Assembly (NCBI GenBank): GCA_049324435.1
Contig: JBMOOQ010000008.1
Span: forward strand, 20,072 to 84,071
Reading direction: 5' to 3'
Source: Pseudomonadota bacterium
GTDB taxonomy: Bacteria; Pseudomonadota; Alphaproteobacteria; Rhizobiales; Xanthobacteraceae
DNA length: 64,000 nt
Under the pieces are notes generated by a model that did no database searches, was not told where the DNA came from, and saw only the letters and a program-made list of their open reading frames with translations. Position numbers and translations under genes: made by a program. Shown here one piece after another: positions 26,575 through 46,158 of the stretch; position 1 is the first letter of the stretch, and each line of letters opens with the position of its first letter.

Positions 26575-26808
26575 CTCACGGCCTCCTTGCCAAAGACCCG
26601 CGCAGTGATTCGTTTGTATGGTAGCCAATTTTGGAAAGGCGCGCCTTAGATTGGAGGCGAGATCAGCGTAGATTTGTGTGCGCTTCCAAGCGCAGCGGAC
26701 CCCATTCTAGCCGCGTGGTCTTAGACGCTGATGAAATGTGTGATTGACTGGCCACCCAAATCGCACCGGCTTCTTTCGTAGAGCCAGCCCGTTGTGCCAA
26801 CCATGCTC

Positions 26809-26882: not shown

Positions 26883-27032
26883 TTACCAGGCCGGGCAAAC
26901 CGACAGGCCGGTGCAAGAGCCCAGCGTGTAGTTCGCGGAGGTCTCGGTTCCTGCGGCACTTTCCAGCACTTCGTCGGAAACGTCGAAGCTCAGGATCTCT
27001 TCTTCTTTTTGATTGAAGGTGGTGAGGGTCAT
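26883..27032 (-). CDS. lanA: Class II lanthipeptide precursor peptide (LanA), 49 aa
   Basis: Not in the ORF track (<60 aa). ATG 27032, RBS AAAGGAA, stop TAA 26883-26885; MTLTTFNQKEEEILSFDVSDEVLESAAGTETSANYTLGSCTGLSVCPAW; divergent from LanM; own terminator. Confidence 0.6.
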   Translation of the reverse strand: MTLTTFNQKEEEILSFDVSDEVLESAAGTETSANYTLGSCTGLSVCPAW

Positions 27033-27379
27033 GGCGTAATTCCTTTCATCCGCCAGATGCATAGAAAGTTACGAGGAAACTTGATGAATTTCCCCCTGCT
27101 GGCGGACGCAAGGATTGGCTAAATGCGGCGAAAAGTCAATCATTGCTGCCTTTGTCATCACAACGATCCGTTACTCAAAATCCTCATCCCGTGATCATGT
27201 CATTAACGCTTCGTGGCCTGCATTTATAGGCAGTGAATTTGCGGCGGCTGCACCGATTTAGGTTTATAGTCTTAAACTGACACTGAGAGCCCGGAAACGC
27301 GGTGCAAAATGGAAGCTGCCGGGTAACGATCCCGATTTCGTGCGGGAAAAACGTCGTCGGGCCCGCTAGGACTGCGTCA

Positions 27380-30300
27380 ATGGATACTCCTTTAGACCGC
27401 ATAGTGGCTCGCGCTGCGACCATCGACGAGCTTCTGGCCAAACCCGGCTCTGCAATGGGCTGCGATGCTGGCATTGCCGAACGGCGGCTGGCGGCGTGGT
27501 GCCGCTCGGCGGCCAATGGCGATTCGCAGCTATTCGCCAGGCGGCTCGCCCGTGACGGTTTGTCCCTTGAGAAGGCCCGCAACCGGCTGGCGGCTGCCTT
27601 CCCGAGTGCAGGTGGCCGCATGACCGGCTGGTCCGCAGACGCCGCCTGGGTCGAAGCGGGATTATACGGTGATTTCACAGAGCAAAGCTTTCCGGCGCTC
27701 AGCGCCGAACCCCGGCCCTTCCAGCACTTGCTTGGCCCGCTCGTCGCGGCGGCTGAGGCCAGACTCTGGCATGCAGCCGGTGAGGACTTGCGCAAGAACT
27801 TCACGGACCCTGGGCTCGAAAGCTTGCGCTTGATGCTGCTCGACCAGCTATCCGACCTATGCGCCCCGCCGCTGTATGAACGTTTTGCCGCGATGCGCGA
27901 GCGTGGCGAGGATTCACAGACTAGCGCCGCAGACCGGGCGCCTGGTACCGCCGCCTACAGCCGGTTCGTCGCGGACATGCGGTCGGGCGGTTTCCGCATA
28001 CTGTTCGATGAGAAGCCGGTACTGCTGCGTCTGATCGCAATCCTCGCACGGCAATGGATCGATTCGGTCTGCGAATTTGCAATTCGCCTGGACAAAGACC
28101 TCGCGGCCGTCCGTCGCGATCTTGCGGGATGCGATCGGTTGGAGCGCATTCTCAAGGTCGATGGCGGCCTGTCCGACCGTCATAACAATGGCCGGTCCGT
28201 CTTCATCGTTACGTTCGAGGACGGTGTCCGCGCGGTCTACAAGCCGAAGGATCTGCGTCTCGACGTGGCCTGGAACAAGCTGATCGCGCGCTTGAACGGA
28301 TCGAGTCCGCCGCTGGCCTTGCGGGCTGCCCGAACGATCGCTCGTGATCACTACGGATGGACCGAGTTCATCGACCACACCGGATGTGCCGACGAAAGCG
28401 GCTGCGACTTGTACTTCCGCAGAGCCGGAGCCTGGCTCGCGCTGTTTCACTGTTTTGCAGCGACCGACATGCACCAGGAGAATGTCATCGCCGCCGGCGA
28501 CCATCCGGTGCCGATCGATCTTGAGACCATTCTCCAGCCGACCCCGGCGCCGCCGAAGAATCAGGAACCGGAGAGCGAAGCCTTCGATGCCGCAACGCGC
28601 ATGATCGCGGATTCCGTCATGGCGGTCGGCGTGCTGCCGGCTTACGGCAGGGCTCCGGACACCTCGATTTTCGCCATGGGCGCCCTGACGGCCGACTGGA
28701 ATGCCAGAATCAGGCTTGAATGGCTCGACATCAACACCGACGGAATGCGTCCGACACGCGCCAAGGTGGTCGAAAATGCAAACCCGAATTTGCCGCATGC
28801 CGGCGGCCGCTACGCCCGCTTCGGCGAGCACGTAGACGCCTTTCTCGCCGGATTTGAAGACTACGCCCGGTTTCTGTCGCAGCTGTCGCGAGGAGACGGC
28901 CTGGGCGGATTGTTCGACGGATTTTCTGGCGTCACGGTCCGGAAGGTGGTCCGGCCGACGCGCTTTTACGCAATGCTGCTGCAGCGCCTGAAGACCCACC
29001 GCAGCATGGATGATGGCGCGGCGTGGTCGGCCCAGGCGGATTTTATCGCGCGCCTGTCGGACTGGGAGGCGCCGTCCGACCCCACCTGGGGGTTTCACCG
29101 GGCAGAGCGGTCCGCTCTCCTCGCCCTAAACGTTCCGCATTTCGTGGTCCCGAGCGATGGTCACGGGGTCCGAGATTGTGAAGGCCCGGTGGCCACACTG
29201 ACAGGGCTATCGGGGCTAGAGCGCGCGCGCGAGCGGGTCCGCCAATTCGATAAGGCCGAGATCGAATGGCAGCTCGCCGTCATCAAGGCCAACACGGCGG
29301 GAGCGCCGCCGAAAAGTTCAGCGGATGTCGCTCGATTGCTCCTGAGAACGGACGTCCCGATTGCAACGGACAGTTTCGCGTCTGAGGCTGACCGGATCGC
29401 GGCGGAAATATCCGAGCATGCCATCCGTCGCGGCCGGTCGGCGGCATGGATCGGTCTCGACTGGATGGGCGACGCCGAGGCGTTCCAGCTCGCGCCCTTG
29501 GGGCCCGATCTGTACAATGGCTTATCTGGGATTGCGGTTTTCCTGTCCGCGCATGCGTCGGTCACCGGGCACGGCGCCTCAGCGGAGCTTGCGCTCGCAG
29601 CGCTGACCCATTTGCGCAAAAAGCTGAAAGATCGAAACTCCGCACGCTTCGTCCGCTCGCTCGGGATTGGCGGCGCGACCGGGCTCGGATCGCTCATCTA
29701 TGCCCTTGCCGTGATCGCAAAGAATCTTGGGCAAGCTGACATCCTTTCCGATGCGCATGCGGCTTCGGCACTGATGATCGACGAGTTGATTGCGGCCGAC
29801 AAACGGCTCGACGCACTCGGCGGCAGCGCCGGCGCAATTCTGGCATTGCTGCGTCTCTACAGAGATACGCAGTCATCTGATGTGCTGGCCCGCGCGGTCG
29901 CTTGCGGCGAACATCTGCTCCGTCAGGAGAGGACCGGTATCGAGGGCATGCGCAGCTGGGTCGGTATTGGTCTTGGCGAAAAGCCCCTCAATGGCATGTC
30001 ACATGGCGCTGCCGGATTTGCCTATGCTCTTGCCTCGCTGGCGGAAGCGACCGGCCGCAACGACTTTCACCGCGCTGCTTCCGAGTGTCTTGCATTCGAG
30101 AATGCGACTTACAATGCCGATCGGCACAACTGGCCCGACTTGCGTCATAAAGGCGAGCCGGGCTGGGCCTGCCGCTGGTGCCATGGTGCGCCGGGAATCG
30201 GCCTCGCACGTGCCGCCCTGCTGAAACGGAGTGGCATCAATGCAGCGACGCTACAGTCGGACATCCGGAACGCGCTGGTTGGGGTCGAAGAGAACTGGCC

Positions 30301-30571
30301 GACGGAGATCGATACGCTATGTTGCGGCACGCTCGGCAGCGTCGAATTCATGTGCGAGGCCGGCGACGCACTCGGCCGACCGGACGTAAGGCGGATCGCA
30401 GCGCAACGGCTTGCGGCTGTGGTCGAGGCCGCACGCATCAACGGCGACTATCGCTGGAACAGCGGAAGGCGACGTTTCAATCTTGGACTATTCCGCGGAC
30501 TTGCGGGTGTGGGCTACACGCTGTTGCGGCAACGCGATAATGCATTGCCGAATGTGCTGATCTGGGAATAG
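27380..30571 (+). CDS. lanM: Class II lanthipeptide synthetase LanM (ProcM-like, CCG zinc-ligand type)
   Basis: 1063 aa from ATG 27380. C-terminal LanC-like motifs GMSHGAAGFAYALASL, WACRWCHGAPGIGLARAALL, LCCGTLGSVEFM. N-terminal ~600 aa of LanM-dehydratase size. GTG 27302 is an alternative start. Confidence 0.8.
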   Translation: MDTPLDRIVARAATIDELLAKPGSAMGCDAGIAERRLAAWCRSAANGDSQLFARRLARDGLSLEKARNRLAAAFPSAGGRMTGWSADAAWVEAGLYGDFTEQSFPALSAEPRPFQHLLGPLVAAAEARLWHAAGEDLRKNFTDPGLESLRLMLLDQLSDLCAPPLYERFAAMRERGEDSQTSAADRAPGTAAYSRFVADMRSGGFRILFDEKPVLLRLIAILARQWIDSVCEFAIRLDKDLAAVRRDLAGCDRLERILKVDGGLSDRHNNGRSVFIVTFEDGVRAVYKPKDLRLDVAWNKLIARLNGSSPPLALRAARTIARDHYGWTEFIDHTGCADESGCDLYFRRAGAWLALFHCFAATDMHQENVIAAGDHPVPIDLETILQPTPAPPKNQEPESEAFDAATRMIADSVMAVGVLPAYGRAPDTSIFAMGALTADWNARIRLEWLDINTDGMRPTRAKVVENANPNLPHAGGRYARFGEHVDAFLAGFEDYARFLSQLSRGDGLGGLFDGFSGVTVRKVVRPTRFYAMLLQRLKTHRSMDDGAAWSAQADFIARLSDWEAPSDPTWGFHRAERSALLALNVPHFVVPSDGHGVRDCEGPVATLTGLSGLERARERVRQFDKAEIEWQLAVIKANTAGAPPKSSADVARLLLRTDVPIATDSFASEADRIAAEISEHAIRRGRSAAWIGLDWMGDAEAFQLAPLGPDLYNGLSGIAVFLSAHASVTGHGASAELALAALTHLRKKLKDRNSARFVRSLGIGGATGLGSLIYALAVIAKNLGQADILSDAHAASALMIDELIAADKRLDALGGSAGAILALLRLYRDTQSSDVLARAVACGEHLLRQERTGIEGMRSWVGIGLGEKPLNGMSHGAAGFAYALASLAEATGRNDFHRAASECLAFENATYNADRHNWPDLRHKGEPGWACRWCHGAPGIGLARAALLKRSGINAATLQSDIRNALVGVEENWPTEIDTLCCGTLGSVEFMCEAGDALGRPDVRRIAAQRLAAVVEAARINGDYRWNSGRRRFNLGLFRGLAGVGYTLLRQRDNALPNVLIWE

Positions 30572-30588: not shown

Positions 30589-31161
30589 CTATTTTCCGTC
30601 GGACGCGCAAGTGGCGTGGATCACCACCTTGAACATATCGAAGGACTGCACCGTGACCTGACAGAGCCGTGAGTCGCCAAGATCGACTTTGACAACGTCG
30701 CCGGCGTTCAGCAGATGCGGTTTACCTTCGATGTTGAGGGTCACACCGTGGATAGTCGGAACCCCTGTCAGCCCAACGTGAACGCGGCCGCCGGCGACAA
30801 TAAACGACTGGTTGGGCCTCATCACATAGATATTCTCGGACGGCACAATTTCGTCGAGCACGGCCTGGACGTGATTGAGCCGGGTTTGAAGCGTGAGGAT
30901 ACGATCCGCGCGCTGGTTAAGCTCAGCGCTGACCTGCTGGCGCTCCTCACGAAGTTGCTGGATCGTCGCATCGCGCTGCGCCAGTTGGCGTCTCGCCAAC
31001 TCGCGTCCTGTGATGTGACCGATCAATGCCACACCAAGGATCAACAAGGTCTCAATCAGAAGAATGTAAATCCGCCGGCGGCGCGTCAACAGGCGCCACG
31101 CGGCCCGCGAACTCAGGTCCGGCTCTGCGGTGCGACGACCGGATCGCAATTTGTCGGCCAC
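30589..31161 (-). CDS. Membrane-anchored coiled-coil protein with C-terminal beta-rich domain (possible SPFH partner / NfeD-like)
   Basis: One TM helix (IYILLIETLLILGVALIG), heptad-rich segment, beta-rich C-terminus VHVGLTGVPTIHGVTLNIEGKPHLLNAGDVVKVDLG; last gene of the ABC-SPFH operon. Confidence 0.4.
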   Translation of the reverse strand: MADKLRSGRRTAEPDLSSRAAWRLLTRRRRIYILLIETLLILGVALIGHITGRELARRQLAQRDATIQQLREERQQVSAELNQRADRILTLQTRLNHVQAVLDEIVPSENIYVMRPNQSFIVAGGRVHVGLTGVPTIHGVTLNIEGKPHLLNAGDVVKVDLGDSRLCQVTVQSFDMFKVVIHATCASDGK

Positions 31162-31270: not shown

Positions 31271-32731
31271 CTATCGTGTCCCTGGCGGCGGATTCACCTG
31301 GATCTCGGCCGGTTTCATCATCACTTCGGTCGGCTTTCCTGGCCCCTCTGTACCATTCGAGGAGCCGGTTGTTCGTGATCCGCCCGTCAGCCGCGACAGA
31401 ACCGCCTCGTAACTCGATAAATCGAACGGGTTGAAGATCGCGGGCTTTTCCGCAGTCTTATCGTTCTTGGCGGCGGCCTCAGGCGCCGACGATCGCTTGT
31501 CGGGGGCAGGCGGCGTCTGGTTCTGCTGCGGTTGGGCCGCCGCGGGCGGGTTGACCTGCACGGCGGCTCCGGGCTGCACCACCACAGTGGTCGGCGACGA
31601 CACCGTTGGGGCCGCCTGGGGAGCAAAAGCGCGCGGGACCGGCTGGGCCGGAGCATAGGCCCCCGGCACGGTTTCGTTCGGCGGCGGCGGAGGCGCAGCC
31701 GCATCTTTGCGCGGCGGAGTTGCGGCCCCGGCAGGCTGGTCGACGTTGCCCAGAATGATTGGCAGACCGTCCTTGCCGCTGCCAATCACCACGACCTTGG
31801 AATTCGGCGATTGCGACAATGCCAAGGTCGCCTCAATGCCGCGCCAGCGAAGATACGAATCCGTAATACCCTGGCCGACAGTCTGCTGGAACGCCGCGAT
31901 ACCGTTGGCCTCGATCTGCTTGCGTCGCGACTCCTGCGCTTCGCGTTCGACGCGATAGCGATACTCCTGAATCAGGTAGAATTGTTCGGTCTGGCGGTTG
32001 ATCGCGGCAACGATCGCAGGTGGCAGCTCGATACTGAGCACAAGCGTATCGATGATCTGGATCGAGTATTGCAATGCGTCGTTATAGTTTCTGGGATCCG
32101 GCTGCTCCATCGCCTCGGGCTGGACCAGCTTGTTGAGATTGGCGCCGAGACCCTTGCGTGCATTGTCGCGCACTTTTTCCTGGATCGCCTCGCGCGAGGT
32201 ATAGACCTCCTGCGCGGTGTATTGCGAAATAACCTGGCGGGTTTGGCTTCCGATTTCGGGACTGACGACGGATTCGAAATATTGCGGACCGATGAACTTG
32301 TGGAGCACCGCTACTGCATTGTGGAGCAGCTGGTAGCGGATGTTCATCTGGATCGTCACGTTGACACCATCGCGCGAGATCGCGTTGTAGGTCTGAGCCG
32401 TCGATTGCAGACGGAGATTGTAGATAAAAAGATGGTCCCACGGCCAAACCAGGTGAAGCCCCTCACCGCGCAGCTGTTGCGGATTGAGCATGGTGCCACG
32501 GCCAGCGAAGCACCAGCAGTAATAATCGAATGTGTTGAAGCGCTTCCACAGAACGCCGACATGGCCGCTTGGCACCGTGATCACCACAAAGCGCCACAGC
32601 ACCGTGACCGCAAGGAAAAGCACGAGCAGCATGAACGCGAAGCTCGGCAACCGGCGTGTCAGGAAATGCCATGTCCCTCGCCGCCGCACCGGCGGAGGGT
32701 TACCATCGAGTGACTCGGGATACGTTGCCAT
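31271..32731 (-). CDS. SPFH/Band-7 (stomatin/prohibitin/HflKC-like) domain membrane protein with Pro/Ala-rich C-terminal tail
   Basis: N-terminal TM then SPFH core (PSGHVGVLWKRF ... NVTIQMNIRYQ ...); ~150-aa low-complexity P/A/Q tail. Confidence 0.75.
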   Translation of the reverse strand: MATYPESLDGNPPPVRRRGTWHFLTRRLPSFAFMLLVLFLAVTVLWRFVVITVPSGHVGVLWKRFNTFDYYCWCFAGRGTMLNPQQLRGEGLHLVWPWDHLFIYNLRLQSTAQTYNAISRDGVNVTIQMNIRYQLLHNAVAVLHKFIGPQYFESVVSPEIGSQTRQVISQYTAQEVYTSREAIQEKVRDNARKGLGANLNKLVQPEAMEQPDPRNYNDALQYSIQIIDTLVLSIELPPAIVAAINRQTEQFYLIQEYRYRVEREAQESRRKQIEANGIAAFQQTVGQGITDSYLRWRGIEATLALSQSPNSKVVVIGSGKDGLPIILGNVDQPAGAATPPRKDAAAPPPPPNETVPGAYAPAQPVPRAFAPQAAPTVSSPTTVVVQPGAAVQVNPPAAAQPQQNQTPPAPDKRSSAPEAAAKNDKTAEKPAIFNPFDLSSYEAVLSRLTGGSRTTGSSNGTEGPGKPTEVMMKPAEIQVNPPPGTR

Positions 32732-32754: not shown

Positions 32755-34398
32755 TCAGCCGCCCACAGTACGTTCGTCAACGATGCGCCCTTCTTCAAAA
32801 TGAACACGACGCCCCCGCAACTTGGTTTCGTCGAGGTACCGGTCGTCATGGGTGATGACGACCAGCGTCTTGCCGGCGCGCATCAGTTCGGGGAGCAATT
32901 CATCATAGAACTTGCGCCGGTATTCCGGATCCTGCTCCGCCGTCCATTCGTCTAGCAGCATGATGGGTCTGTTTTCCAGCATGCTGACGATCAGCGCGAG
33001 CCGCCTGCGCTGGCCGCCCGAAAGGTCGAGGGTACGGAACTCGCCGTTGGTCAGGCCCGTCTTGTCCTCCAGCCGGAATTTGGCCAGCAGATTTGCCAGC
33101 TCGCCCGGATCGACGTCCGGAATGCCGTAGAGCCGCCGGAACAGATGATAGTCATAGAAAATAGCCGAAAATAGTTCGCGATACTCGTCGCGGGTCGCCT
33201 TGTTGACCCGCTTTCCGTTCAGCAGAACCTCGCCCTCCTGGGGGTGATAAAGACCCGCAAGCACGCGCAGAAAGGTCGATTTGCCGGAGCCATTGCCGCC
33301 GGTGATGAACACGAGCTCGCCGGAACGCAGAGTGAAGTCGATTGGGCCGATATGGAACGCCACGTCGGAATGGCGGTCGACATAGCTGAAAACGATCTGG
33401 CGCATTTCGATCGATTCGAAGCTCTTCGGCGTTGCGACCTCGTCTGTCTCCGACGACACGGACTCGCGCAGCTTCGTTTCGAGGATTTGAATCCGGTCCG
33501 CAGCCGCATTGGCGTTCATCAGAATGGGAATCGACTGCACGAGTGCGAAGCATGCACCGATGACGTAGAGCAGTGCCGCGGTGATCTTGGCGATTGACGC
33601 GCCGCCAAGGCTTTCACTGAATTGCGGAGCAACGAACACCACCGTGCCGAGCAGGATATACATATAGCCTTGCGAATAGGCGATTTGCTTGAAGGTTTCC
33701 GACTGGCTTCTGATTTTGATGTTGGCCGCGGTGCGCGACACATCGACGGCATCGTCAAACAAGGCATCGCTGCGGCTCCGGTTGAGCCTGACCTCTTTGA
33801 AGCCATCGAGAAAATCGGTGATGCGATCGAACAGACGGCGCTCGTGCTCGGCGGCCCGCATTCGCTCCTCAACCAGCTTGCGGCTCCGGAAGTGAAAGAT
33901 CAGACCCGCCATGCTGACGATGAGAACGCTCAGCAGAAAGGCCGCGAGCGACAAATAGGCCACGTAGATCGCCACGAACCCGATCAGGACCGGTCCCTGA
34001 ATCGAGAAGCTGAGCATGTTGCTCGCCTGCGTCAAGATCGCGGCATCGCTCGAAATCGCGGCGATGATGCGCGCGCGGCCGACCTCTTCGATCGACAAAA
34101 GCTCCGAGCGGCGGACATAGTCCATCATTCGCACGCGAAGCTTGTGAATGATGGCCTCGATTTCCGACGTAATCGTCGTCGAGACGTAAACCTGGGTCTT
34201 GAAAAACAGGAACAGCGACACCACGAACAGGGTGGCCGACCAAAGCGCAGCGCCGCGTTCGTCCGAATCCGCCGCGGCCGCGCCGGTGTTGATCGCCGTA
34301 AGAATAAGGGCGTTGCTGATCCCCCCCAGAGCAGACATGAACACCAGCTTCCGCACCGAAGCGTGCATCTCGCGGTGAACAAGCTGGAGGAAGGACAT
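32755..34398 (-). CDS. Fused permease-ATPase ABC exporter of the cyclic-peptide/YojI-McjD type
   Basis: 547 aa; 6-TM N-terminal half, C-terminal NBD with Walker A GGNGSGKST, signature LSGGQRRRL, Walker B MLLDEWTAEQD; no N-terminal C39 peptidase domain. Confidence 0.8.
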   Translation of the reverse strand: MSFLQLVHREMHASVRKLVFMSALGGISNALILTAINTGAAAADSDERGAALWSATLFVVSLFLFFKTQVYVSTTITSEIEAIIHKLRVRMMDYVRRSELLSIEEVGRARIIAAISSDAAILTQASNMLSFSIQGPVLIGFVAIYVAYLSLAAFLLSVLIVSMAGLIFHFRSRKLVEERMRAAEHERRLFDRITDFLDGFKEVRLNRSRSDALFDDAVDVSRTAANIKIRSQSETFKQIAYSQGYMYILLGTVVFVAPQFSESLGGASIAKITAALLYVIGACFALVQSIPILMNANAAADRIQILETKLRESVSSETDEVATPKSFESIEMRQIVFSYVDRHSDVAFHIGPIDFTLRSGELVFITGGNGSGKSTFLRVLAGLYHPQEGEVLLNGKRVNKATRDEYRELFSAIFYDYHLFRRLYGIPDVDPGELANLLAKFRLEDKTGLTNGEFRTLDLSGGQRRRLALIVSMLENRPIMLLDEWTAEQDPEYRRKFYDELLPELMRAGKTLVVITHDDRYLDETKLRGRRVHFEEGRIVDERTVGG

Positions 34399-34495: not shown

Positions 34496-34696
34496 TCAGG
34501 ACCGGCGACGCCATTCCACGTTTCGCGACGGGCCAGTGATAAGCAGCAAGGGCAGCACCACCAGAGGTGTTGTCAACAGCGCAAGCCCGAAGGTTCCGAG
34601 GAATCCCATACGGCGCCCGATGCCGCACAAACCGGTCAACGCGCAAAAGACGATGTATAGCCCTGCCTCGATCATCGGTTTCACTGGAGCAGCCAT
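34496..34696 (-). CDS. Possible small hydrophobic membrane peptide
   Basis: 66-aa ORF between the ABC exporter and DUF697 genes, weak RBS AAAGG, two hydrophobic stretches; may be spurious. Confidence 0.2.
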   Translation of the reverse strand: MAAPVKPMIEAGLYIVFCALTGLCGIGRRMGFLGTFGLALLTTPLVVLPLLLITGPSRNVEWRRRS

Positions 34697-34744: not shown

Positions 34745-35326
34745 TCAAGAGTTGGTGCGCGGAGCGGTGGTGGCGTCCGGCGCAGACACCTTGGCGCGCG
34801 AACGATTGTCCCACTTTTCCTTCTGCGCCTTTATGAACTCGCGATAGTCGGGCGGGTTGAAGTCGAGCAAAGTGCCGCCCGATTCGAAGTGCTGGATGAA
34901 CGCCTTACCAATCGCAAAGGTTGCACCCGCTGCGAGCGCAGGCATCACGAAGCCCGAAGCAATCGTCCCGAGCACAGGCACCGACTTCAGCATGCTGGCC
35001 GCGCCGATGCCGCTGGTCGCAGGGATCATCGTCCCGGCCAGGGCTGCGATCAGCGCCTTGCCGCTGTTTTCGGAGAACGGCACGTTATAAATTTGCGACA
35101 GGCGGCGCAGCATCTGGAGCTGAATACCGGCAACGGTGGCGACGTCGATGATCGGGACCGGGATGAGCCCGCCGACGCCGCTCCACAATGCGAAACGATC
35201 AACCAGCTTGTTGGCCATCTCGAGCCGCGCGGCTGGGGTCAATTCCTGAGTTTCGGGCGTCTCGGACTTGGTCTCCGCCTCTGATGTCGTCTTTTGTGCC
35301 ATCCTGGAACCCTTCTCGGCATGCAT
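34745..35326 (-). CDS. DUF697-like membrane-associated protein (second paralog)
   Basis: See 25292..25933; shared GxGGLxPxPxxDVxxVxxxQLxMxxxLSxxYxxPF core. Confidence 0.5.
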   Translation of the reverse strand: MHAEKGSRMAQKTTSEAETKSETPETQELTPAARLEMANKLVDRFALWSGVGGLIPVPIIDVATVAGIQLQMLRRLSQIYNVPFSENSGKALIAALAGTMIPATSGIGAASMLKSVPVLGTIASGFVMPALAAGATFAIGKAFIQHFESGGTLLDFNPPDYREFIKAQKEKWDNRSRAKVSAPDATTAPRTNS

Positions 35327-35535
35327 GGATCGACCGCCATCTGATCGAGCGATCTAGATGTCTGTTCGCCGCAATCAAATCTGGTTTGAAAACGCTATCA
35401 TGATGGGTTGCGACTGCCAAGCGTCCGCAAGCGCCGTTATATGCTTGCAATATAAGGACTTATCATTCCGGCTTGGCGATCTTGCCTCGGTCGGACCGAT
35501 AGCCATAATGGCATGGCGGGCACGCGGAGACAGGT

Positions 35536-35754
35536 ATGGGGTCGAGACTTCAGAAGGACGTCCCGGTTAGAGCGCGCCGCGCATGGGAGGCGCCTGCCAT
35601 TTCAGAAGTCTCTATCGCAGGCGCGACGAAAGCCGCGGCTCTGGAAGAGCGTCCCGGCGAGGACCGAAATCCCCCGCCGCCCGCGACTCCGGGGGCCAAG
35701 CTCGGTTTCTCGTTCGAAATGTCGTTCCCGTTATCGGTCCGCACCGATAGCTGA
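35536..35754 (+). CDS. Lasso peptide precursor (A); predicted core GAKLGFSFEMSFPLSVRTDS
   Basis: RBS GGAGA-5nt-ATG; leader ends ...PPPATP (Thr at -2), core Gly1 and Glu9; directly upstream of B1-B2-C on the same strand. Confidence 0.6.
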   Translation: MGSRLQKDVPVRARRAWEAPAISEVSIAGATKAAALEERPGEDRNPPPPATPGAKLGFSFEMSFPLSVRTDS

Positions 35755-35837
35755 CCCGGCGCCTCGGTCTCTCGGCCATCCGCCGATGGCGAAGGATACC
35801 CTGATCCGCTAGGCTCGCTTCGCCTTTCCGGACACGC

Positions 35838-36152
35838 GTGCGGGACCCATCAATCGTGAGTGTGACAATCGACAGCGTGCTGGTTCGCGATCAGTACCTT
35901 GCCGCGACCGATCTGGGCGGTCAGATCGTCGTCCTCAATGTCCACACCGATACCTATGTCAGCCTCAACGCCGTGGCGAGCGACATCTGGACCATGCTTT
36001 CCGAACCGCGCCGCGTGGGCGATATTCTCGAGTTCCTATTGCAAAGGCATGATGTCGATGGCGAAACTCTGTCGCGCGACGTGCTGCCCTTCCTGCAAAC
36101 TATGATCGAGCGGCGGCTGGTGCGGCAGGTGGAAGGAGCTTGCGGGCGATGA
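35838..36152 (+). CDS. PqqD-family RiPP recognition element protein (lasso B1)
   Basis: ~100 aa; PqqD-like pattern LNAVASDIWTML...GDILEFLLQRHDVDGETLSRDVLPFLQTMIERRLV; start codon uncertain (GTG 35838 or internal GTG 35856/35862). Confidence 0.7.
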   Translation: MRDPSIVSVTIDSVLVRDQYLAATDLGGQIVVLNVHTDTYVSLNAVASDIWTMLSEPRRVGDILEFLLQRHDVDGETLSRDVLPFLQTMIERRLVRQVEGACGR

Positions 36153-36556
36153 CGCCTCGGACGAGGCGACGGATATATCTGCGGGAAGCCGCGATCGTGC
36201 TCATGCTGGCACGTCTTGCCGTGCGCATATTGCCGTCAGCGCGCTTGTTGCGCTGGGCCGATCGCCCGATGAAAAAGCTCTGCCGCTTCCCTGGAGATGA
36301 CGTGGCCTGGACCGCCTGGGCGATCGAACATGCGGCGAAACGCCAGGGCGCGGCACTGCAATGTCTGCCGCGCGCCCTTGCTGCGCATGTCATGCTTCGC
36401 CGGCGCGGTATCGCAAGCAGGATTTGCCTGGGCGTTGCGCGACATCGCGACCATCTGATCGCGCATGCATGGATTGAAGTTGGCTCACGAAAGCTGGTCG
36501 GCGGAGACGATTCCGAACGCTTCACGCCTTTGGCCGCCTTTGGCGGCGCCAAATGA
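36149..36556 (+). CDS. Lasso peptide leader protease (B2, transglutaminase-like Cys protease)
   Basis: ATG 36149 overlaps B1 stop (ATGA), RBS GGAAGGAG; Cys/His/Asp context QCLPRALAAHVMLRRRGIASRICLGVARHRDHLIAHAWIEVG. Confidence 0.7.
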   Translation: MTPRTRRRIYLREAAIVLMLARLAVRILPSARLLRWADRPMKKLCRFPGDDVAWTAWAIEHAAKRQGAALQCLPRALAAHVMLRRRGIASRICLGVARHRDHLIAHAWIEVGSRKLVGGDDSERFTPLAAFGGAK

Positions 36557-36574
36557 TTCGAATCAAAAGACCTC

Positions 36575-38512
36575 ATGAGCGCCATCGCCGGCATCCTGCG
36601 TTTCGATGACCAGCCGGTCAGCCGGCGCGAACTGGAACGCGCCGCCGCCGCGCTGCGCGCCTTCGGGCCGGATCGATCGGATGTCGCCGTAAGCGGTCCT
36701 GCGGGATTTGCTCACGCGCTGATGCGCATGACGCCGGAGGACCGTGACGACCGCCAGCCCTTCCATGGCGCTGGCGGATCGATGATCACCGCCGACCTTC
36801 GCCTCGATAATCGCGACGACATCATTGCCTGCCTTGGCCTCTCGGCCAGGGACACATCGTCCTTGCCGGACTCCCGGGTGGTACTCAAGGCCTGGGAAAC
36901 ATTCGGCGACCGCCTGTGGCCGATGCTGCGGGGCCCGTTTGCAATTGCGATCTGGGACGCGAACCGCCGCACGCTGACCCTGGCGCGCGATCAACTGGGC
37001 CTGAATGTCATCATGTGGCACCGGAGCCGGCGCTTCTTCGCGTTTGCAACCATGCCCAACGGATTGTTCGCGCTGAATGAGGTGCCCCGCCGATTGAGCG
37101 AGGAAAAGTTTGCGGACTTTCTCGTGCTCAATCATGCCGAGCACGCGACCACTATCTACAAGGACACTTTCCGCGTGCCGCCGGCGCATGTGATGAAAGT
37201 CGATGCGCATGGCAATATCACGCAGTCCCGTTACTGGTCCCCCCAGGACACGCCGCGCGTCAGATTACGGACAGATCAGGATTATGCCGACGGATTGCGC
37301 GAGCGCCTCAATCGCGCCGTCAGACGCCAGATGCGCAGTGCTTATCCGATCGGATGTCTGCTCAGCGGCGGTCTCGACTCCTCGTCGGTCGCCGCCCTCG
37401 CAGCGAGCGCGCTCGCCGAGACCGGTCAGCGTCTCGCGGCTTTCACCGGTGTACCAGGGCCGGACTTCGATGGCGCTGTTCCAGAGGGACACTATGCCGA
37501 CGAAACACCCTATGTCGATGCTATCGCAAGAACGATCGGCAATATCGACGTCACCTATGTCCATAACGATACAACCGACGATCTCGCGCAACTCGACCGG
37601 TTTTTTGTTGCGCTCGAAGGCCCGGTGCGCAATCCGACCAACCTCGGCTGGGTTCTGGCGATCCTGCGTCGCGCGCATGGCGCGAATAGACGCGTCCTGC
37701 TCGGCGGATTGCGCGGCAATTATACGATAAGCTGGACCGGCTGGTCTCAGGCCTTCGATCACCTGATGCACGGCCGCTGCATCACTGCGTTCCGTCAGTG
37801 GCATCTGTATTATCGCCGTACCCCGTATTCACGCTGGAATGCGGTGCACAAACTGTTCATCGAGCCGGCCCTCTCCCGATGGCGCTGCTCGTGGGCGGAT
37901 CGCCGTCACCATCCGCAACGCGTCGCTCCATGGCAGATGCATTCACCGATCCGGCCTGACTTTGCGGCAGCCATGGAAGTGGAGGTGCGCGCGCGGCAAT
38001 CTGGGCACGATTTTCATTATCGCGCGCACCGCGACGAACGCATCCAGGGGCTCCTTCAGGCCGACTATGCCGGCGACTGGCATGCTGCCGAAAAGGCGGT
38101 AACCGGAGTCGAGATTCGCGACCCCACGGCCGACATCGACGTCGTCTCCTATTGTCTCGGGATACCCCCCGAACAGTTTCTTGCCGAAGGCACTGACCGC
38201 TCGCTGATCCGGCGAGCGATGTGGGGTATCCTGCCTGAATGCGTGGTGACGAACCGCCTCCACGGCCTGCAGGATGCGGAATGGTATCGACGGATTGAAG
38301 GCCGCCGCGACGAGATTGCCCGTGAGATCAAGGCCCTAGCGCAGTCTCCGTTGGCACAGCGAGCGATCGATATTCCCCGGCTCGAGCGCGCCCTGTCGCA
38401 TTGGCCAAGCGATGGCTGGAATCGCGCCGAGACATTTACAGAGTACAATCTGATGCTGATGCGCGGCTTAGCTGGCGGCCGCTTCCTGCGATGGTTCGAA
38501 TCGGTGAACTGA
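36575..38512 (+). CDS. Lasso peptide cyclase (C, asparagine synthetase B homolog)
   Basis: 645 aa; N-terminal Ntn-like domain without Cys2 (MSAIAGIL), PP-loop LSGGLDSSSVAA, AsnB-like C-terminal domain. Confidence 0.8.
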   Translation: MSAIAGILRFDDQPVSRRELERAAAALRAFGPDRSDVAVSGPAGFAHALMRMTPEDRDDRQPFHGAGGSMITADLRLDNRDDIIACLGLSARDTSSLPDSRVVLKAWETFGDRLWPMLRGPFAIAIWDANRRTLTLARDQLGLNVIMWHRSRRFFAFATMPNGLFALNEVPRRLSEEKFADFLVLNHAEHATTIYKDTFRVPPAHVMKVDAHGNITQSRYWSPQDTPRVRLRTDQDYADGLRERLNRAVRRQMRSAYPIGCLLSGGLDSSSVAALAASALAETGQRLAAFTGVPGPDFDGAVPEGHYADETPYVDAIARTIGNIDVTYVHNDTTDDLAQLDRFFVALEGPVRNPTNLGWVLAILRRAHGANRRVLLGGLRGNYTISWTGWSQAFDHLMHGRCITAFRQWHLYYRRTPYSRWNAVHKLFIEPALSRWRCSWADRRHHPQRVAPWQMHSPIRPDFAAAMEVEVRARQSGHDFHYRAHRDERIQGLLQADYAGDWHAAEKAVTGVEIRDPTADIDVVSYCLGIPPEQFLAEGTDRSLIRRAMWGILPECVVTNRLHGLQDAEWYRRIEGRRDEIAREIKALAQSPLAQRAIDIPRLERALSHWPSDGWNRAETFTEYNLMLMRGLAGGRFLRWFESVN

Positions 38513-38592: not shown

Positions 38593-39763
38593 GTGAAGAT
38601 CGAGCCCGATACCGAAAACTTCTACGACCGGGTACCTGTCTTCCGCGGCTTCCCGAGCGTTGTGGACGAGACACTGTATCATCCGCTGCCGCAGGATTGG
38701 GTCATTGGAGCCACAGATGTCGTGGGCTCGACACGAGCAATCCTTGAGAACCGCTACAAGGCGGTGAACATGGCCGGTGCCGCGGGCATTGCCGCCGTGG
38801 CTAATGTGCTGGGCCGCGAATTTCCGTTCGTATTCGGCGGCGACGGCGCGAGCTTCGCGGTCCCACCGTCAGGCATAGATCTGGCGCGCGACGCAATAGC
38901 GGCAACGCTGCGCTGGACGGCGGAAGAATTGGCTCTGGAGCTGCGCGGCGCCATGGTGCCGGTGCGGGAGATCAGGGCCCATGGCCTGGATGTCCGGGTC
39001 GCGCGCTTCGCGCCGTCGGACGATGTGACCTACGCGATGTTCTCCGGCGGCGGACTCGCATGGGCCGAAACCGCAATGAAACAGGGGCATTTCGCGGTAT
39101 CTCCAGCGCCGCCCGGCGCACGTCCCGATCTGACCGGCCTCTCGTGCCGCTTCGAGGAAATGCCTTCGCTGCACGGGCTCGTTCTGGCGATCTTGGTCGT
39201 CCCAGGCGATCGCGCCGATCCGCGCGCATTCCGCCGGGAAGTGCAGGAACTCGTGCTGCTTGCCGAGCGGAAAGGCCATGCCCCTGTCCCAGCAAATGGC
39301 CCGGACTTCCGCTGGCCGCCTCAGGGCATCGATCTCGAGGCGCGCGCGTCCTCCCGCGGCGACGTGCCGCTGCTGCTTCGGCGCGGCGCTGTTCAGGACA
39401 GCGCTCTATTATCTCATTTTCCGGTTCCGCGTGCGCGTCGGACCGTTTATCCCCGCAGTCTATCTGAAGCAGGTCGTGGCGAATTCCGACCACCGCAAAT
39501 TCGATGACGCATTGCGCATGATCATTGACTGCAACTCTGACCTGGCGGAGGAGATTGAACAAAAGCTCAAAGCAGCTGCACGGAAAGGAATTTTGCGCTT
39601 TGGCCTTCATCGTGAACGGGCCGCAATGATGACTTGCTTCACGCCATTTCCGGCGCATTCAGATCACATGCATTTCATCGATGGCGCGGCCGGCGGATAT
39701 GCGCTTGCCGCAGCCGCGCTGAAAACCGGCGCAGCGGGCACATCCAAGACAGGCACGACCTGA
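38593..39763 (+). pseudogene. DUF3095-like protein (tentative family call) with apparent +/-1 frameshift near 39385-39400
   Basis: Frame 1 reads YKAVNMAGAAGIAAVANVLGREFPFVFGGDGASFAVPP to 39507 with a junk-like tail. Frame 2 continues protein-like from ~39390 (YLKQVVANSDHRKFDDALRMIIDCNSDLAEEIEQKLKAAARKGILRFGLHRE...HMHFIDGAAGGY) to stop 39761-39763. Combined ~390 aa. Confidence 0.4.
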
Positions 39764-45721: not shown

Positions 45722-45803
45722 AGTTATCTCTTAGTGTTCTGGGCTGGCTGGCACTTGCGTCGACAGAAGTGCTTGCTGGCTTATCGGACTCGACCGACGT
45801 TCA

Positions 45804-45825
45804 AATTTCGTATTCTAGCGAAATT
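45804..45825. promoter_or_regulatory. Perfect inverted repeat AATTTCG-N8-CGAAATT in the hmuR/hmuP divergent promoter; candidate iron-regulator (Irr/ICE-like) operator
   Basis: AT-rich palindrome in the 188-bp divergent intergenic region of the haem-uptake locus. Confidence 0.35.
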
Positions 45826-45936
45826 TCTGGGTCAACCGAGCAAGACCGCTATCTTTTAAACTGCTTCTAAGAAGGATGGCATCCCTGTACGAATTCCAAA
45901 TCATATGCGGTGACAGCGCTTCTCATATCTTCGAAA

Positions 45937-46158
45937 ATGTCAGCGACCATGCGACAGCAGATCAATAATGCAATGAAAATGGAAGACGGACGCGCCGCTG
46001 CCGTATCGATCTCGGTCGAGCGCGCGATCACGATGGCAGATAACAGTATCGATTCGCGCGATATCTTTGTGGGCACACGGGAAGTGACAATCACCCACGG
46101 CGGCGAGCGCTATCGTCTCAGATTGACCGCTCAGAACAAGTTGATCCTGACAAAATGA
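45937..46158 (+). CDS. hmuP: HemP/HmuP haemin-uptake small protein
   Basis: C-terminal HemP signature GGERYRLRLTAQNKLILTK; start uncertain (ATG 45937 or GTG 45910). Confidence 0.7.
   Translation: MSATMRQQINNAMKMEDGRAAAVSISVERAITMADNSIDSRDIFVGTREVTITHGGERYRLRLTAQNKLILTK

What the first reader, a model, noticed from the sequence alone, without database searches (positions are those of the whole stretch)
35536..38512. Complete lasso peptide gene set A-B1-B2-C with a predicted 20-aa core (Gly1...Glu9) and an unusually long leader
Four co-directional ORFs. (1) 35536..35754 (72 aa, RBS GGAGA-5nt-ATG) ends ...PPPATP-GAKLGFSFEMSFPLSVRTDS: Thr at leader position -2, Gly at core position 1 and Glu at core position 9. 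This is the constellation lasso cyclases need for a Gly1-Glu9 isopeptide ring, with bulky Phe/Arg residues available as plugs. (2) 35838..36152 is a PqqD-like RRE protein (B1). (3) 36149..36556 is a transglutaminase-like Cys protease (B2), and its ATG overlaps the B1 stop. (4) 36575..38512 is an Asn-synthetase homolog with the PP-loop SGGLDSS and no N-terminal catalytic Cys (cyclase C). The predicted 52-aa Pro/Arg/Glu-rich leader is long for a proteobacterial lasso precursor. A 6-bp hairpin (GCCATC-cgcc-GATGGC) sits between A and B1. No isopeptidase or adjacent D exporter is present, but a YojI/McjD-family ABC exporter lies ~1.1 kb upstream on the other strand.
Basis: partly seen in the sequence, partly recalled or inferred. 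Interest (0 to 1): 0.85.

Follow-up and report, generated by a model that had tools for sequence, protein, structure and literature searches.

The report
Lasso operon with atypical conserved precursor

Summary
All four ORFs exist as described. Profile HMMs confirm a PqqD-type RRE (B1), a lasso B2 protease and a lasso-type Asn-synthetase cyclase (C). The 72-aa ORF is a real peptide: more than 110 homologues, third-codon-position variation only, and a conserved promoter, RBS and ATG.

Across 90 distinct homologues Gly occupies that "position 1" column in 4 and Thr the "-2" column in 14.

The peptide is modular. Residues 14-32 form a complete canonical lasso leader (W17xxP20xI22...T31-K32). Sister clusters prove this: they encode polyproteins of the same leader followed directly by cores with Asp8 or Asp9. 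A variable spacer, a PxxPxxP stretch and the invariant K55-L-G-F-S-F-E61-M... follow. Glu61 is the only invariant acid, and Lys55 is equally invariant.

The operon is one half of an island conserved in 57 species-level MAGs (Pseudorhodoplanes/Pseudolabrys): SPFH protein, YojI-like ABC exporter, an uncalled small membrane protein and DUF697, plus LanM/LanA nearby. Nine lineages have lost B1, and four of these also the B2 catalytic Cys, yet keep the peptide and C under selection.

Verdict: a genuine lasso-type operon, a new variant; product structure unresolved.

The parts
35482..35509 (+). sigma-70-like promoter (TTGCCT-16-CATAAT) for the precursor/B1B2C operon
   Evidence: Consensus scan. Both hexamers are conserved in an alignment of 11 related loci.
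35395..35430 (.). conserved ~35-nt non-coding block (GCTATCATG..GGTTGCGACTGCCAAGCG) in the divergent intergenic region; possible operator or promoter of the minus-strand operon
   Evidence: Conserved in 11 related loci. Function not tested.
35526..35530 (+). RBS GGAGA, 5 nt before the ATG
   Evidence: Sequence. GGAG is conserved in relatives.
35536..35754 (+). precursor peptide A (72 aa), KLGF family
   Evidence: 51 metagenomic and 57 genomic homologues. Codon-position entropy 0.40/0.05/1.27 across the core.
35575..35631 (+). residues 14-32: canonical lasso leader module RRAW17EAP20AI22SEVSIAGAT31K32; Thr31 is the likely true Thr(-2)
   Evidence: T31 is invariant in all B1-containing loci. The module is homologous, in register, to leaders of polyprotein units that are followed by Asp8/Asp9 cores.
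35632..35667 (+). residues 33-44: variable spacer. It occupies the place of the lasso core in canonical sister units.
   Evidence: Indels and low conservation. No enrichment of Asp/Glu at +7..+9. Aligns with the cores of canonical units.
35668..35691 (+). residues 45-52: proline-rich block NPPPPATP (family pattern [E/N]-P-x-x-P-x-x-P)
   Evidence: Pro 87/90 and 89/90 at -6 and -3 relative to Lys55. Aligns with the RPDPEPQPRPP follower of the polyproteins.
35692..35697 (+). residues 53-54 (Gly-Ala): variable junction.
   Evidence: Column 53: A42 S18 T16 G4 E4 L3 V2 H1. Column 54: T60 S22 A5 M L N.
35698..35742 (+). residues 55-69: near-invariant module KLGFSFEMSFPLSVR. Lys55 and Glu61 (35716-35718) are invariant in all >110 sequences.
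   Evidence: Hydrophobic residues at every second position (L56 F58 F60 M62 F64 L66 V68) can be read directly from the sequence.
35838..36152 (+). B1, PqqD-like RRE (start 35838 or 35856)
   Evidence: PF05402 1e-16; NF033536 best hit; closest solved relative is TbiB1 (5V1U), E = 2e-10.
36149..36556 (+). B2, transglutaminase-like Cys protease (Cys72, His106 present)
   Evidence: NF033537 81.8 bits, above cutoff 33. Cys72 52/57 and His106 54/57 in relatives.
36575..38512 (+). C, lasso-type Asn-synthetase-like cyclase (PP-loop SGGLDSS at residues 264-270, no Cys2)
   Evidence: NF033535 best hit at 340 bits; PF00733, PF13537. More than 1100 homologues.
34745..35326 (-). DUF697 membrane protein, divergent from A (gene callers start it at 35302)
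   Evidence: PF05128 58.6 bits. Adjacent to A in essentially all related loci.
34496..34696 (-). uncalled small two-helix membrane protein (~59-66 aa; likely start Met8)
   Evidence: tblastn 57-92% identity in 56 loci, always between ABC and DUF697. No Pfam/NCBIfam family. Called as a 62-aa gene in L061/L062.
32755..34398 (-). D: YojI-like cyclic-peptide ABC exporter
   Evidence: TIGR01194 343 bits, above cutoff 286; PRK10522 340 bits. Syntenic in all loci.
31271..32731 (-). SPFH/Band 7 protein with a Pro/Ala-rich C-terminus
   Evidence: PF01145 90.9 bits. Syntenic in all loci.
30589..31161 (-). p190: membrane anchor, coiled coil and beta-rich domain; follows the SPFH gene
   Evidence: No family hit. 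Present next to Band7 in nearly all type I loci.
27380..30571 (+). LanM class II lanthipeptide synthetase (island neighbour)
   Evidence: TIGR03897 740 bits, above cutoff 304. Found within 10 kb of the lasso genes in most loci.
26883..27062 (-). candidate LanA precursor ...EEEILSFDVSDEVLESAAG|TETSANYTLGSCTGLSVCPAW
   Evidence: Conserved in about 48 related loci.

Best explanation
The window carries an intact, expressed-looking split-B lasso-type RiPP operon (A-B1-B2-C). It is transcribed divergently from a conserved membrane operon (DUF697, small membrane protein, YojI-like ABC exporter, SPFH protein, p190). The only substrate encoded locally is the 72-aa KLGF peptide.

Shown by the data:
- The enzymes belong to the lasso B1, B2 and C families.
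- Residues 14-32 of the peptide are a canonical lasso leader with Thr31 in the Thr(-2) position.
- Glu61 is the only invariant acidic residue, and Lys55 is equally invariant.

Inferred mechanism: B1 binds the leader module. B2 (Cys72/His106) removes leader sequence. C adenylates the Glu61 side chain and closes a macrolactam. The ABC transporter exports the product, and the SPFH, DUF697 and small-membrane proteins assist export or self-protection.

My committed reading is that the ring is a small (7-9 residue) macrolactam onto Glu61, made from an alpha-amine freed at residue 53, 54 or 55. In this window that means Gly53-Glu61, Ala54-Glu61 or Lys55-Glu61, about 0.45 in total. Ala54 or Gly53 is favoured because the sister-cluster cyclase (64% identical) makes 8- and 9-residue rings. 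This reading needs a cleavage at a non-canonical, Pro-flanked junction in addition to, or instead of, the canonical Thr31-Lys32|Ala33 site. That step is the weakest one.
For: - Enzyme families.
- Real peptide under purifying selection in this frame.
- Conserved promoter, RBS and ATG.
- The eight-gene block is conserved in 57 species-level genomes while the outer flanks vary or are rearranged.
- Leader module homologous, in register, with canonical units that carry Asp8/Asp9.
- No other canonical precursor in the 64-kb window or within 10 kb in any type I locus.
- Orphan canonical precursors are rare (5 clusters), so C in type I clusters most probably acts on the KLGF peptide.
- Lys55, Gly57 and Glu61 stay invariant even in the most divergent relatives.
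Against: - No viable 7-9-residue register has a conserved Thr at -2. The registers would put invariant Pro at P1 (9-ring) or P2 (8-ring), or Lys at ring position 1 (7-ring), all unprecedented (PMC10368454, PMC12670498).
- By homology B2 should cut after Thr31-Lys32, which leaves the spacer attached.
- B1 has been lost on at least four branches. The B2 catalytic Cys is replaced in 4 of the 9 B1-less loci. Yet the core and C remain under selection. This is hard to reconcile with obligatory B1/B2-dependent maturation, unless these functions are supplied in trans.
- C scores below the NCBIfam trusted cutoff for lasso cyclases (340 vs 525 bits).
Confidence: 0.55

Rival explanations
1. One reading: leader = residues 1-52 with Thr51 as the recognition Thr(-2). 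B2 cuts Pro52|Gly53, and C joins Gly53 to Glu61 to give a 20-residue lasso peptide with a 9-residue ring.
For: In this window the triad Thr51/Gly53/Glu61 fits the canonical spacing. Gly53 recurs in the closest relative shown (P0003). The column is small (A/S/T/G) in 80 of 90 sequences. The sister cyclase makes 8- and 9-residue rings.
Against: Across the family Thr is found at that -2 column in 14/90 and Gly at +1 in 4/90. Glu, Leu, Val and His also occur at +1. P1 would be an invariant Pro (89/90), unusual for a papain-like Cys protease (my general knowledge). The invariant Thr is Thr31, 20 residues upstream.
Confidence: 0.15
2. Side-chain lasso-like product: B2 cuts at the canonical Thr31-Lys32|Ala33 site (or not at all), and C joins the Lys55 epsilon-amine to the adenylated Glu61 side chain. 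By my count this gives a 27-atom ring, compared with 25 and 28 for the Asp8 and Asp9 rings of the sister units. The ring would sit in a 40-residue or full-length peptide.
For: Lys55 and Glu61 are invariant at fixed i/i+6 spacing in more than 110 sequences, including very divergent ones. The canonical leader predicts cleavage at 32|33. The spacer is free to vary. B1 loss and B2 active-site decay are tolerated while A and C stay under selection. None of the alpha-amine registers is canonical.
Against: To my knowledge, no lasso cyclase is known to use a lysine side chain; Lys-Glu macrolactams in RiPPs are made by ATP-grasp enzymes. B1 and B2 are retained with intact active sites in 47 of 56 informative loci, including this window. 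Invariance of Lys55 is equally explained if it is ring residue 1, 2 or 3.
Confidence: 0.15
3. The KLGF peptide is not cyclised by C. It is a leader-bearing accessory peptide (for example an export, immunity or regulatory partner of the ABC/SPFH/DUF697 module). B1/B2/C act on canonical precursors encoded elsewhere in the genome.
For: In type II sister clusters the KLGF gene sits in the membrane-protein operon, while canonical polyprecursors sit next to B1B2C. Orphan canonical precursors with an almost identical leader (RRAWEAPA...) exist. The C-terminal module has a strict alternating hydrophobic pattern, unlike known lasso cores.
Against: In all 57 type I loci the KLGF gene occupies the canonical A position directly before B1, and no other precursor lies within 10 kb. 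Orphan canonical precursors are rare (5 clusters) while the KLGF-associated cyclase family has more than 1100 members. KLGF never occurs without C in the loci examined.
Confidence: 0.15
4. The cluster is a decaying or silent remnant with no product.
For: Some relatives show B1 deletion, B2 Cys loss or frameshifts (L005, L054, L057). The neighbouring DUF3095 gene in this window is frameshifted.
Against: All four genes are intact here. There is strong purifying selection on the peptide and conservation of C, the promoter and the RBS across 57 species.
Confidence: 0.03

Closest known systems
Split-B (B1/B2) lasso peptide clusters with an RRE, e.g. the Thermobaculum terrenum Tbi system (TbiB1, PDB 5V1U/5V1V)
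   Same: The same four-gene logic, A-B1-B2-C. B1 is a PqqD-like RRE (E = 2e-10 to TbiB1). B2 is a transglutaminase-like Cys protease and C an Asn-synthetase-like cyclase. The leader has a YxxPxL-like motif (WxxPxI) and a Thr two residues before the leader end.
   Different: Here the canonical leader is not followed by a core with Asp/Glu at 7-9. A variable spacer, a Pro-rich block and an invariant C-terminal module follow instead. The motif-to-Thr spacing is one residue shorter than the canonical -17..-12/-2 (PMC10368454).
Microcin J25 system McjABCD (and E. coli YojI)
   Same: A lasso cluster with a dedicated half-size ABC exporter of the cyclic-peptide/YojI family (TIGR01194 above cutoff). 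As I recall it, the MccJ25 leader also ends in Thr-Lys.
   Different: McjB is a fused B protein. The MccJ25 core follows its leader directly (Gly1-Glu8). That system has no SPFH, DUF697 or small membrane protein partners. The exporter here is divergently transcribed, with three or four extra membrane proteins.
Uncharacterised 'type II' sister clusters found here (L061, L062/L065)
   Same: The same island (LanM, SPFH, ABC, small protein, DUF697, B1, B2, C; C 64%, B2 50%, B1 43% identical) and a KLGF-type peptide with the same leader, Pro-rich block and K..G...E module.
   Different: The KLGF gene sits at the end of the membrane operon. Next to C lie polyproteins of 3-6 tandem canonical units (leader ...AT-A|, Asp8/Asp9 cores, Pro-rich follower). 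The window has no such polyprotein.
Lasso precursors with non-canonical junctions: BsfA (Ile at -2; PMC10368454) and metanodin (Asn at position 1; PMC12670498)
   Same: They show that Thr(-2) and Gly/Ala/Ser/Cys at position 1 are not absolute, and that uncultured soil bacteria hold unusual lasso precursors.
   Different: Both keep the leader directly abutting a core with Asp at 8 or 9, and both are experimentally verified. Here even the position of the junction is unclear.
Xanthomonins (7-residue Glu-closed rings; from memory) and graspetides/microviridins (Lys-Glu side-chain macrolactams made by ATP-grasp ligases; from memory)
   Same: Precedents for, respectively, a 7-residue ring that needs Glu, and a Lys-to-Glu isopeptide at short spacing.
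   Different: Xanthomonins start with Gly and have a canonical leader junction. Graspetide rings are made by a different enzyme family that is absent here.

Membership tests
Lasso peptide biosynthetic gene cluster | Asn-synthetase-like, ATP-dependent macrolactam synthetase (C) lacking the N-terminal catalytic Cys | tested here: met
   NF033535 is the best NCBIfam hit (340 bits, though below its 525 cutoff). PF00733 111 bits. PP-loop SGGLDSS present. Starts MSAIAG.
Lasso peptide biosynthetic gene cluster | Transglutaminase-like Cys protease (B or B2) with catalytic Cys and His | tested here: met
   NF033537 lasso_biosyn_B2 81.8 bits, above cutoff 33; PF13471. Cys72 and His106 are present and conserved in 52/57 and 54/57 relatives.
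Lasso peptide biosynthetic gene cluster | PqqD-like RiPP recognition element (B1 or N-terminal domain of B) | tested here: met
   PF05402 61 bits, above cutoff 23.4. NF033536 best hit (51 bits, below its cutoff of 80). TbiB1 E = 2e-10.
Lasso peptide biosynthetic gene cluster | Precursor leader with a YxxPxL-type motif about 12-17 residues before the cleavage site and Thr at -2 | tested here: inconclusive
W17xxP20xI22 ... T31-K32 fits, with one residue less spacing, and is homologous to leaders of canonical units.
Lasso peptide biosynthetic gene cluster | Core peptide directly after the leader, with a small residue at position 1 and Asp/Glu at position 7, 8 or 9 | tested here: not met
After Thr31-Lys32 the window has Glu at +5, +6 and +10 and Asp at +11. 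Family-wide only about a quarter have an acid at +7..+9, and some have none before Glu61.
Lasso peptide biosynthetic gene cluster | Product is a threaded lariat (isopeptide ring with the tail through it) | not testable with these tools
   Needs expression, MS/MS, and carboxypeptidase/heat stability tests or NMR.
McjD/YojI-type cyclic-peptide ABC exporter (lasso 'D') | Half-transporter with a TMD-NBD fusion that matches the cyclic-peptide exporter subfamily and is genetically linked to the cluster | tested here: met
   TIGR01194 343 bits, above cutoff 286; 547 aa. Adjacent and divergent in all related loci with enough flank. Substrate not testable.
Class II lanthipeptide cluster (neighbour, considered as part of the island) | LanM (DUF4135 dehydratase plus LanC-like cyclase) with a Ser/Thr/Cys-containing LanA next to it | tested here: met
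   TIGR03897 740 bits, above cutoff 304. The 59-aa ORF with leader ...FDVSDEVLESAAG and core TETSANYTLGSCTGLSVCPAW is conserved in about 48 loci.

The most novel reading that the evidence does not exclude
The lasso-type cyclase does not use a freed N-terminal amine. It ties the invariant Lys55 side chain to the invariant Glu61 side chain, giving a 27-atom ring by my count. The product would be a new lasso-like topology in a 40-residue or longer peptide that needs no leader removal. This would explain three things: why no canonical junction exists, why the spacer is free to vary, and why B1 and the B2 active site can be lost while the peptide and C stay under selection. The peptide would then be a conserved physiological effector working with the SPFH/DUF697/ABC membrane module, not a variable antibiotic. 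In addition, the sister clusters would hold the first multi-core (polyprotein) lasso precursors.
Probability: 0.12. Interest if true: 0.9.

Novelty: new variant of a known kind. Interest (0 to 1): 0.62.

Why it matters
Lasso peptide mining tools and the field's working rules assume that a leader with YxxPxL and Thr(-2) directly abuts a variable core with Asp/Glu at 7-9. This family breaks that rule in a systematic way. It is abundant: more than 1100 cyclase homologues and 57 species-level genomes, all from uncultured soil Xanthobacteraceae relatives.

An invariant RiPP core across dozens of species points to a conserved cellular role rather than an arms-race antibiotic. The constant partnership with an SPFH protein, DUF697 proteins, a small membrane protein and a LanM/LanA pair gives these poorly understood membrane proteins a testable context. 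Natural B1-less and B2-Cys-less variants are ready-made experiments on whether lasso cyclases can act without leader proteolysis. The sister clusters with tandem canonical units suggest that lasso peptides, like cyanobactins, can be made from multi-core polyproteins.

Tried and rejected
- Hairpin between A and B1: z = 0.23 versus shuffles, not in the MFE structure, not conserved. Rejected as a feature.
- A canonical ring starting at residue 33 or 34: no conserved acid at +7..+9. Rejected family-wide.
- A 6-residue ring Leu56-Glu61, by analogy with a second 'Thr-Lys|' site: it gives the best match to Thr(-2), with T/S in 82/90. But a 20-atom ring (my count) is too small to thread, and the window has Ala54. 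Kept only as an unlikely branched-cyclic option.
- Literature searches for Pseudolabrys plus lasso, for the core sequence, for DUF697/SPFH plus lasso, and for multi-core lasso precursors found nothing relevant.
- The cyclase search for outgroups was saturated by the same family.
- PDB sequence searches gave no solved homologue for B2 and only generic AsnB-type hits for C.
- PADLOC gave no defence-system assignment for the membrane genes.
- A metagenome DNA-pattern scan for P0237-like cores returned nothing.
- The attempt to name the organism of the orphan-precursor contig through RecA cluster members gave no taxon.
- The rest of the window was scanned for an isopeptidase or a second RRE; none was found.

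Full report
OBSERVATION. The four co-directional ORFs are present exactly as described. GGAGA lies 5 nt before ATG 35536, and the B1 stop and B2 start overlap as ATGA. Profile searches confirm the enzyme assignments:
- The 104-aa ORF is a PqqD-family protein (PF05402, 61 bits). The lasso RRE model NF033536 is its best NCBIfam hit.
- The 135-aa ORF passes the lasso B2 equivalog-domain model (NF033537, 81.8 bits, cutoff 33).
- The 645-aa ORF has the lasso cyclase model NF033535 as its best hit (340 bits, below the 525 cutoff), plus Asn_synthase and inactive GATase domains.
- The minus-strand ABC gene 32755-34398 passes the cyclic-peptide exporter model TIGR01194 (343 bits, cutoff 286).

The closest solved relative of B1 is the lasso RRE TbiB1 (E = 2e-10). 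The B1 start is uncertain: gene callers on two identical public contigs use GTG 35856. The inverted repeat between A and B1 exists, but the spacer folds no better than shuffled sequence (z = 0.23) and no hairpin is conserved in relatives. I discard it.

THE PEPTIDE IS REAL. The 72-aa ORF has 50 homologues in metagenomes, covering nearly its whole length. A scan of one genome per species found it in 57 genomes, all MAGs labelled Pseudorhodoplanes, Pseudolabrys, Xanthobacteraceae or unclassified Alphaproteobacteria. Across 58 sequences the 15 core codons vary almost only at third positions (entropy 0.40/0.05/1.27), and the other two frames are not conserved. A TTGCC-N-CATAAT promoter, a GGAG RBS and the ATG are conserved in the closer relatives. 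The long N-terminal part is therefore translated.

Over 90 distinct sequences, numbering Lys55 as +1:
- The 'Thr(-2)' column is A37 S21 T14 Q5 P5 and others.
- The residue before the proposed cut is Pro in 89/90.
- From Lys55 onward the sequence is almost frozen: K-L-G-F-[S/A]-F-E-M-[S/A]-[F/L]-P-[L/M]-[S/A]-x-R.
- Glu61 is the only invariant acid. The C-terminal Asp/Glu is often absent.

Very divergent relatives from a profile search keep Lys, Gly and Glu at the same spacing, e.g. KPGLSIEW and KIGFAFEW.

WHAT THE LONG LEADER IS. The N-terminal part has its own conserved motif, R-R-A-W17-E-A-P20-A-I22-...-I-G-x-x-T31-K32-[S/A]. Thr31 is invariant in the 51 metagenomic sequences and in all B1-containing loci. 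Canonical lasso leaders carry YxxPxL at -17 to -12 and Thr at -2 (PMC10368454). Counted from a cut after Lys32, the motif here sits at -16/-13/-11 with Thr at -2.

The profile search also returned polyproteins (P0234, P0242, P0237). Two of them lie directly downstream of the cyclase in sister clusters that share the whole island (L061, L062; C 64%, B2 50%, B1 43% identical to the window's). I parsed 19 units from these proteins. Every one is this same leader module ending in Thr-Ala (once Thr-Thr). It is followed at once by a segment with Asp at position 8 (16 units) or 9 (3 units), then about 9 residues, then RP[D/N]PEPQPRPP. These are textbook lasso leader/core pairs in tandem.

An HMM of the units aligns the KLGF leaders in register with Thr31 = Thr(-2). 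A direct alignment shows that the variable spacer of the KLGF peptides corresponds to the canonical core, and that their PxxPxxP block corresponds to the polyprotein follower. So the 'unusually long leader' is a normal leader, plus a degenerate ex-core used as a spacer, plus a proline-rich block.

No canonical ring can start at residue 33. The window has acids at +5, +6, +10 and +11. Only about a quarter of homologues have one at +7..+9, and the distance to the invariant Glu ranges over roughly 25-41 residues (a rough parse).

CONTEXT. In every related locus with enough flank the plus-strand A-B1-B2-C set faces a minus-strand operon: DUF697, a small membrane protein, the ABC exporter and an SPFH/Band 7 protein.
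- The small gene (window 34496-34696, minus strand) was not called on the identical contig L001. It is 57-92% identical in 56 loci.
- A 190-aa membrane/coiled-coil protein follows the SPFH gene.
- A LanM (TIGR03897, 740 bits), a conserved LanA-like peptide, and a ParA-like ATPase with a second DUF697 paralogue recur within 10 kb, but in different orders and orientations. This argues for functional linkage rather than frozen synteny.
- Genes downstream of C (DUF3095, M20 peptidase) are not constant.
- The rest of the window is housekeeping, with no isopeptidase and no second RRE.
- No further leader-module ORF exists in the 64 kb or in any type I locus.
- Orphan canonical precursors with an almost identical leader exist but are rare (5 clusters).

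NATURAL VARIANTS. Nine of 56 informative loci have no B1 within 10 kb, on at least four branches of the cyclase tree, with no RRE fused to B2. Four of these nine have also replaced the B2 catalytic Cys72 (Ser, Ser, Glu, Gly) and one also His106. Cys72 is otherwise conserved (52/57) and is present in the window. Thr31 is lost only in two of these lineages. Yet C is intact there (0-3 changes at 61 conserved columns). The KLGF core still shows 1-7 synonymous against 0-1 conservative non-synonymous codon differences within the B1-less clades.

MECHANISM. Shown: enzyme families, leader homology, the invariant Lys55/Glu61 pair, linkage to the exporter. Inferred: B1 binds residues about 14-32, B2 cleaves, C activates Glu61, and the ABC transporter exports.

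The amine partner is unresolved. The alpha-amine options are:
- Ala54 (8-ring; P2 = invariant Pro; the column is T/S/A/G in nearly all sequences).
- Lys55 (7-ring; Lys at position 1 is unprecedented).

Experimentally observed first residues are Gly, Cys, Ser and Ala, and Asn only since 2025 (PMC12670498).

By homology B2 should cut after Lys32, which none of these options explains. A Lys55-Glu61 side-chain link would explain it, and would explain the B1/B2 losses, but has no precedent for this enzyme family. By my atom count that ring has 27 atoms, against 25 and 28 for the Asp8 and Asp9 rings of the sister units and 23, 26 and 29 for Glu7, Glu8 and Glu9.

COMPARISON AND NOVELTY. The gene set is a member of the lasso family by its enzymes. 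The precursor fails the defining 'leader abuts a core with Asp/Glu at 7-9' test. No paper in the searchable library mentions this core, these taxa with lasso peptides, SPFH/DUF697-linked lasso clusters or multi-core lasso precursors. Co-localisation of lasso clusters with another RiPP class has a recent precedent in Bacillota (PMC13381572, abstract seen). I rate this a new variant of a known kind. It is of moderate to high interest because the family is abundant, strictly conserved and experimentally tractable, with predicted masses given.

Noticed in passing
window 34496-34696 (-): Small two-helix membrane protein gene between the ABC exporter and DUF697. Not called on the identical public contig L001, no family in Pfam or NCBIfam, but conserved (57-92% identity) at the same place in 56 related loci.
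   Followed up: yes
window 26883-27062 (-) and 27380-30571 (+): Candidate class II lanthipeptide precursor (leader ...EEEILSFDVSDEVLESAAG, core TETSANYTLGSCTGLSVCPAW), divergent from a LanM synthetase. Both recur near the lasso genes in most related loci, sometimes with two LanA copies. No C39-peptidase exporter was seen.
   Followed up: partly
window 25292-25933 (-) and 25930-26628 (-): A second DUF697 paralogue, translationally coupled to a ParA-like ATPase. The pair recurs in related loci but at three different positions in the island (upstream of LanA, between LanM and p190, or 4-5 kb downstream of C).
   Followed up: partly
window 38593-39763 (+): The DUF3095 gene just downstream of the cyclase is split by a frameshift near 39.3-39.4 kb. 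Pfam profile positions 1-255 are in one frame and 264-378 in another. It is either a pseudogene or an assembly error, and the identical Logan contig shares it.
   Followed up: yes
L061 8001-9251 (+) and 10338-11264 (-); L062 10001-11212 (+) and 5352-6802 (+): Sister clusters encode polyproteins of 3-6 tandem canonical lasso units (leader ...W.PP..T.LPI.AT-A|, core with Asp8/Asp9, Pro-rich follower), next to B1-B2-C. In L061 they flank a phage-type integrase. These may be the first multi-core lasso precursors. Position-1 residues include Asn, Leu, Ile, Met and Val.
   Followed up: partly
L009, L020, L022, L025, L038, L049, L052, L055, L059: Natural A-B2-C clusters without any B1 within 10 kb, on at least four branches. 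L020, L022, L055 and L059 also lack the B2 catalytic Cys, and L055 also the His. The peptide core and C remain under purifying selection.
   Followed up: yes
L060 8001-8447; proteins P0237, P0264-P0267: Orphan canonical lasso precursors (core ALSGGGSD-NYARYDIIHRPG) in a RecA/AlaS neighbourhood with no lasso enzymes nearby. All end with a C-terminal half copy of the leader motif (…SWQAPVVTTLSI-stop).
   Followed up: partly
window 35395-35430: A ~35-nt block (GCTATCATG..GGTTGCGACTGCCAAGCG) in the divergent DUF697/A intergenic region is conserved in 11 related loci. It may be an operator or the minus-strand promoter. No regulator gene is evident in the island.
   Followed up: no
window 30589-31161 (-): A 190-aa protein with an N-terminal membrane helix, a coiled coil and a beta-rich C-terminal domain follows the SPFH gene in nearly all type I loci. 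In type II loci its place is taken by the KLGF peptide gene. It may be an NfeD-like partner of the SPFH protein. No family hit.
   Followed up: partly
L062 11269-11481 and 11926-12948 (+): Downstream of the type II polyprotein lie a second LanA-like ORF (…EEILNFTISDEALEAAAG SEQKLQTNTGSPSVLCYPDYCC) and a 340-aa protein with trypsin-like His and Ser motifs (LTAGHC, GASGG). The latter could trim leaders or followers.
   Followed up: no
L005, L054, L057: Individual relatives carry frameshifts: in B2 (L005, L054) or in the precursor leader (L057). These are decay or MAG assembly errors.
   Followed up: no
window 43385-48978: A TonB-dependent receptor plus a periplasmic binding protein, FecCD permease and ATPase uptake system lies about 5 kb downstream of the cluster. 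Linkage to the lasso genes was not tested in the relatives.
   Followed up: no
protein P0243 (no locus): A 620-aa protein made of eleven ~55-aa repeats, each containing ERGWEAPTLAHVPL, matched the leader profile weakly. It is probably an unrelated tandem-repeat translation.
   Followed up: no
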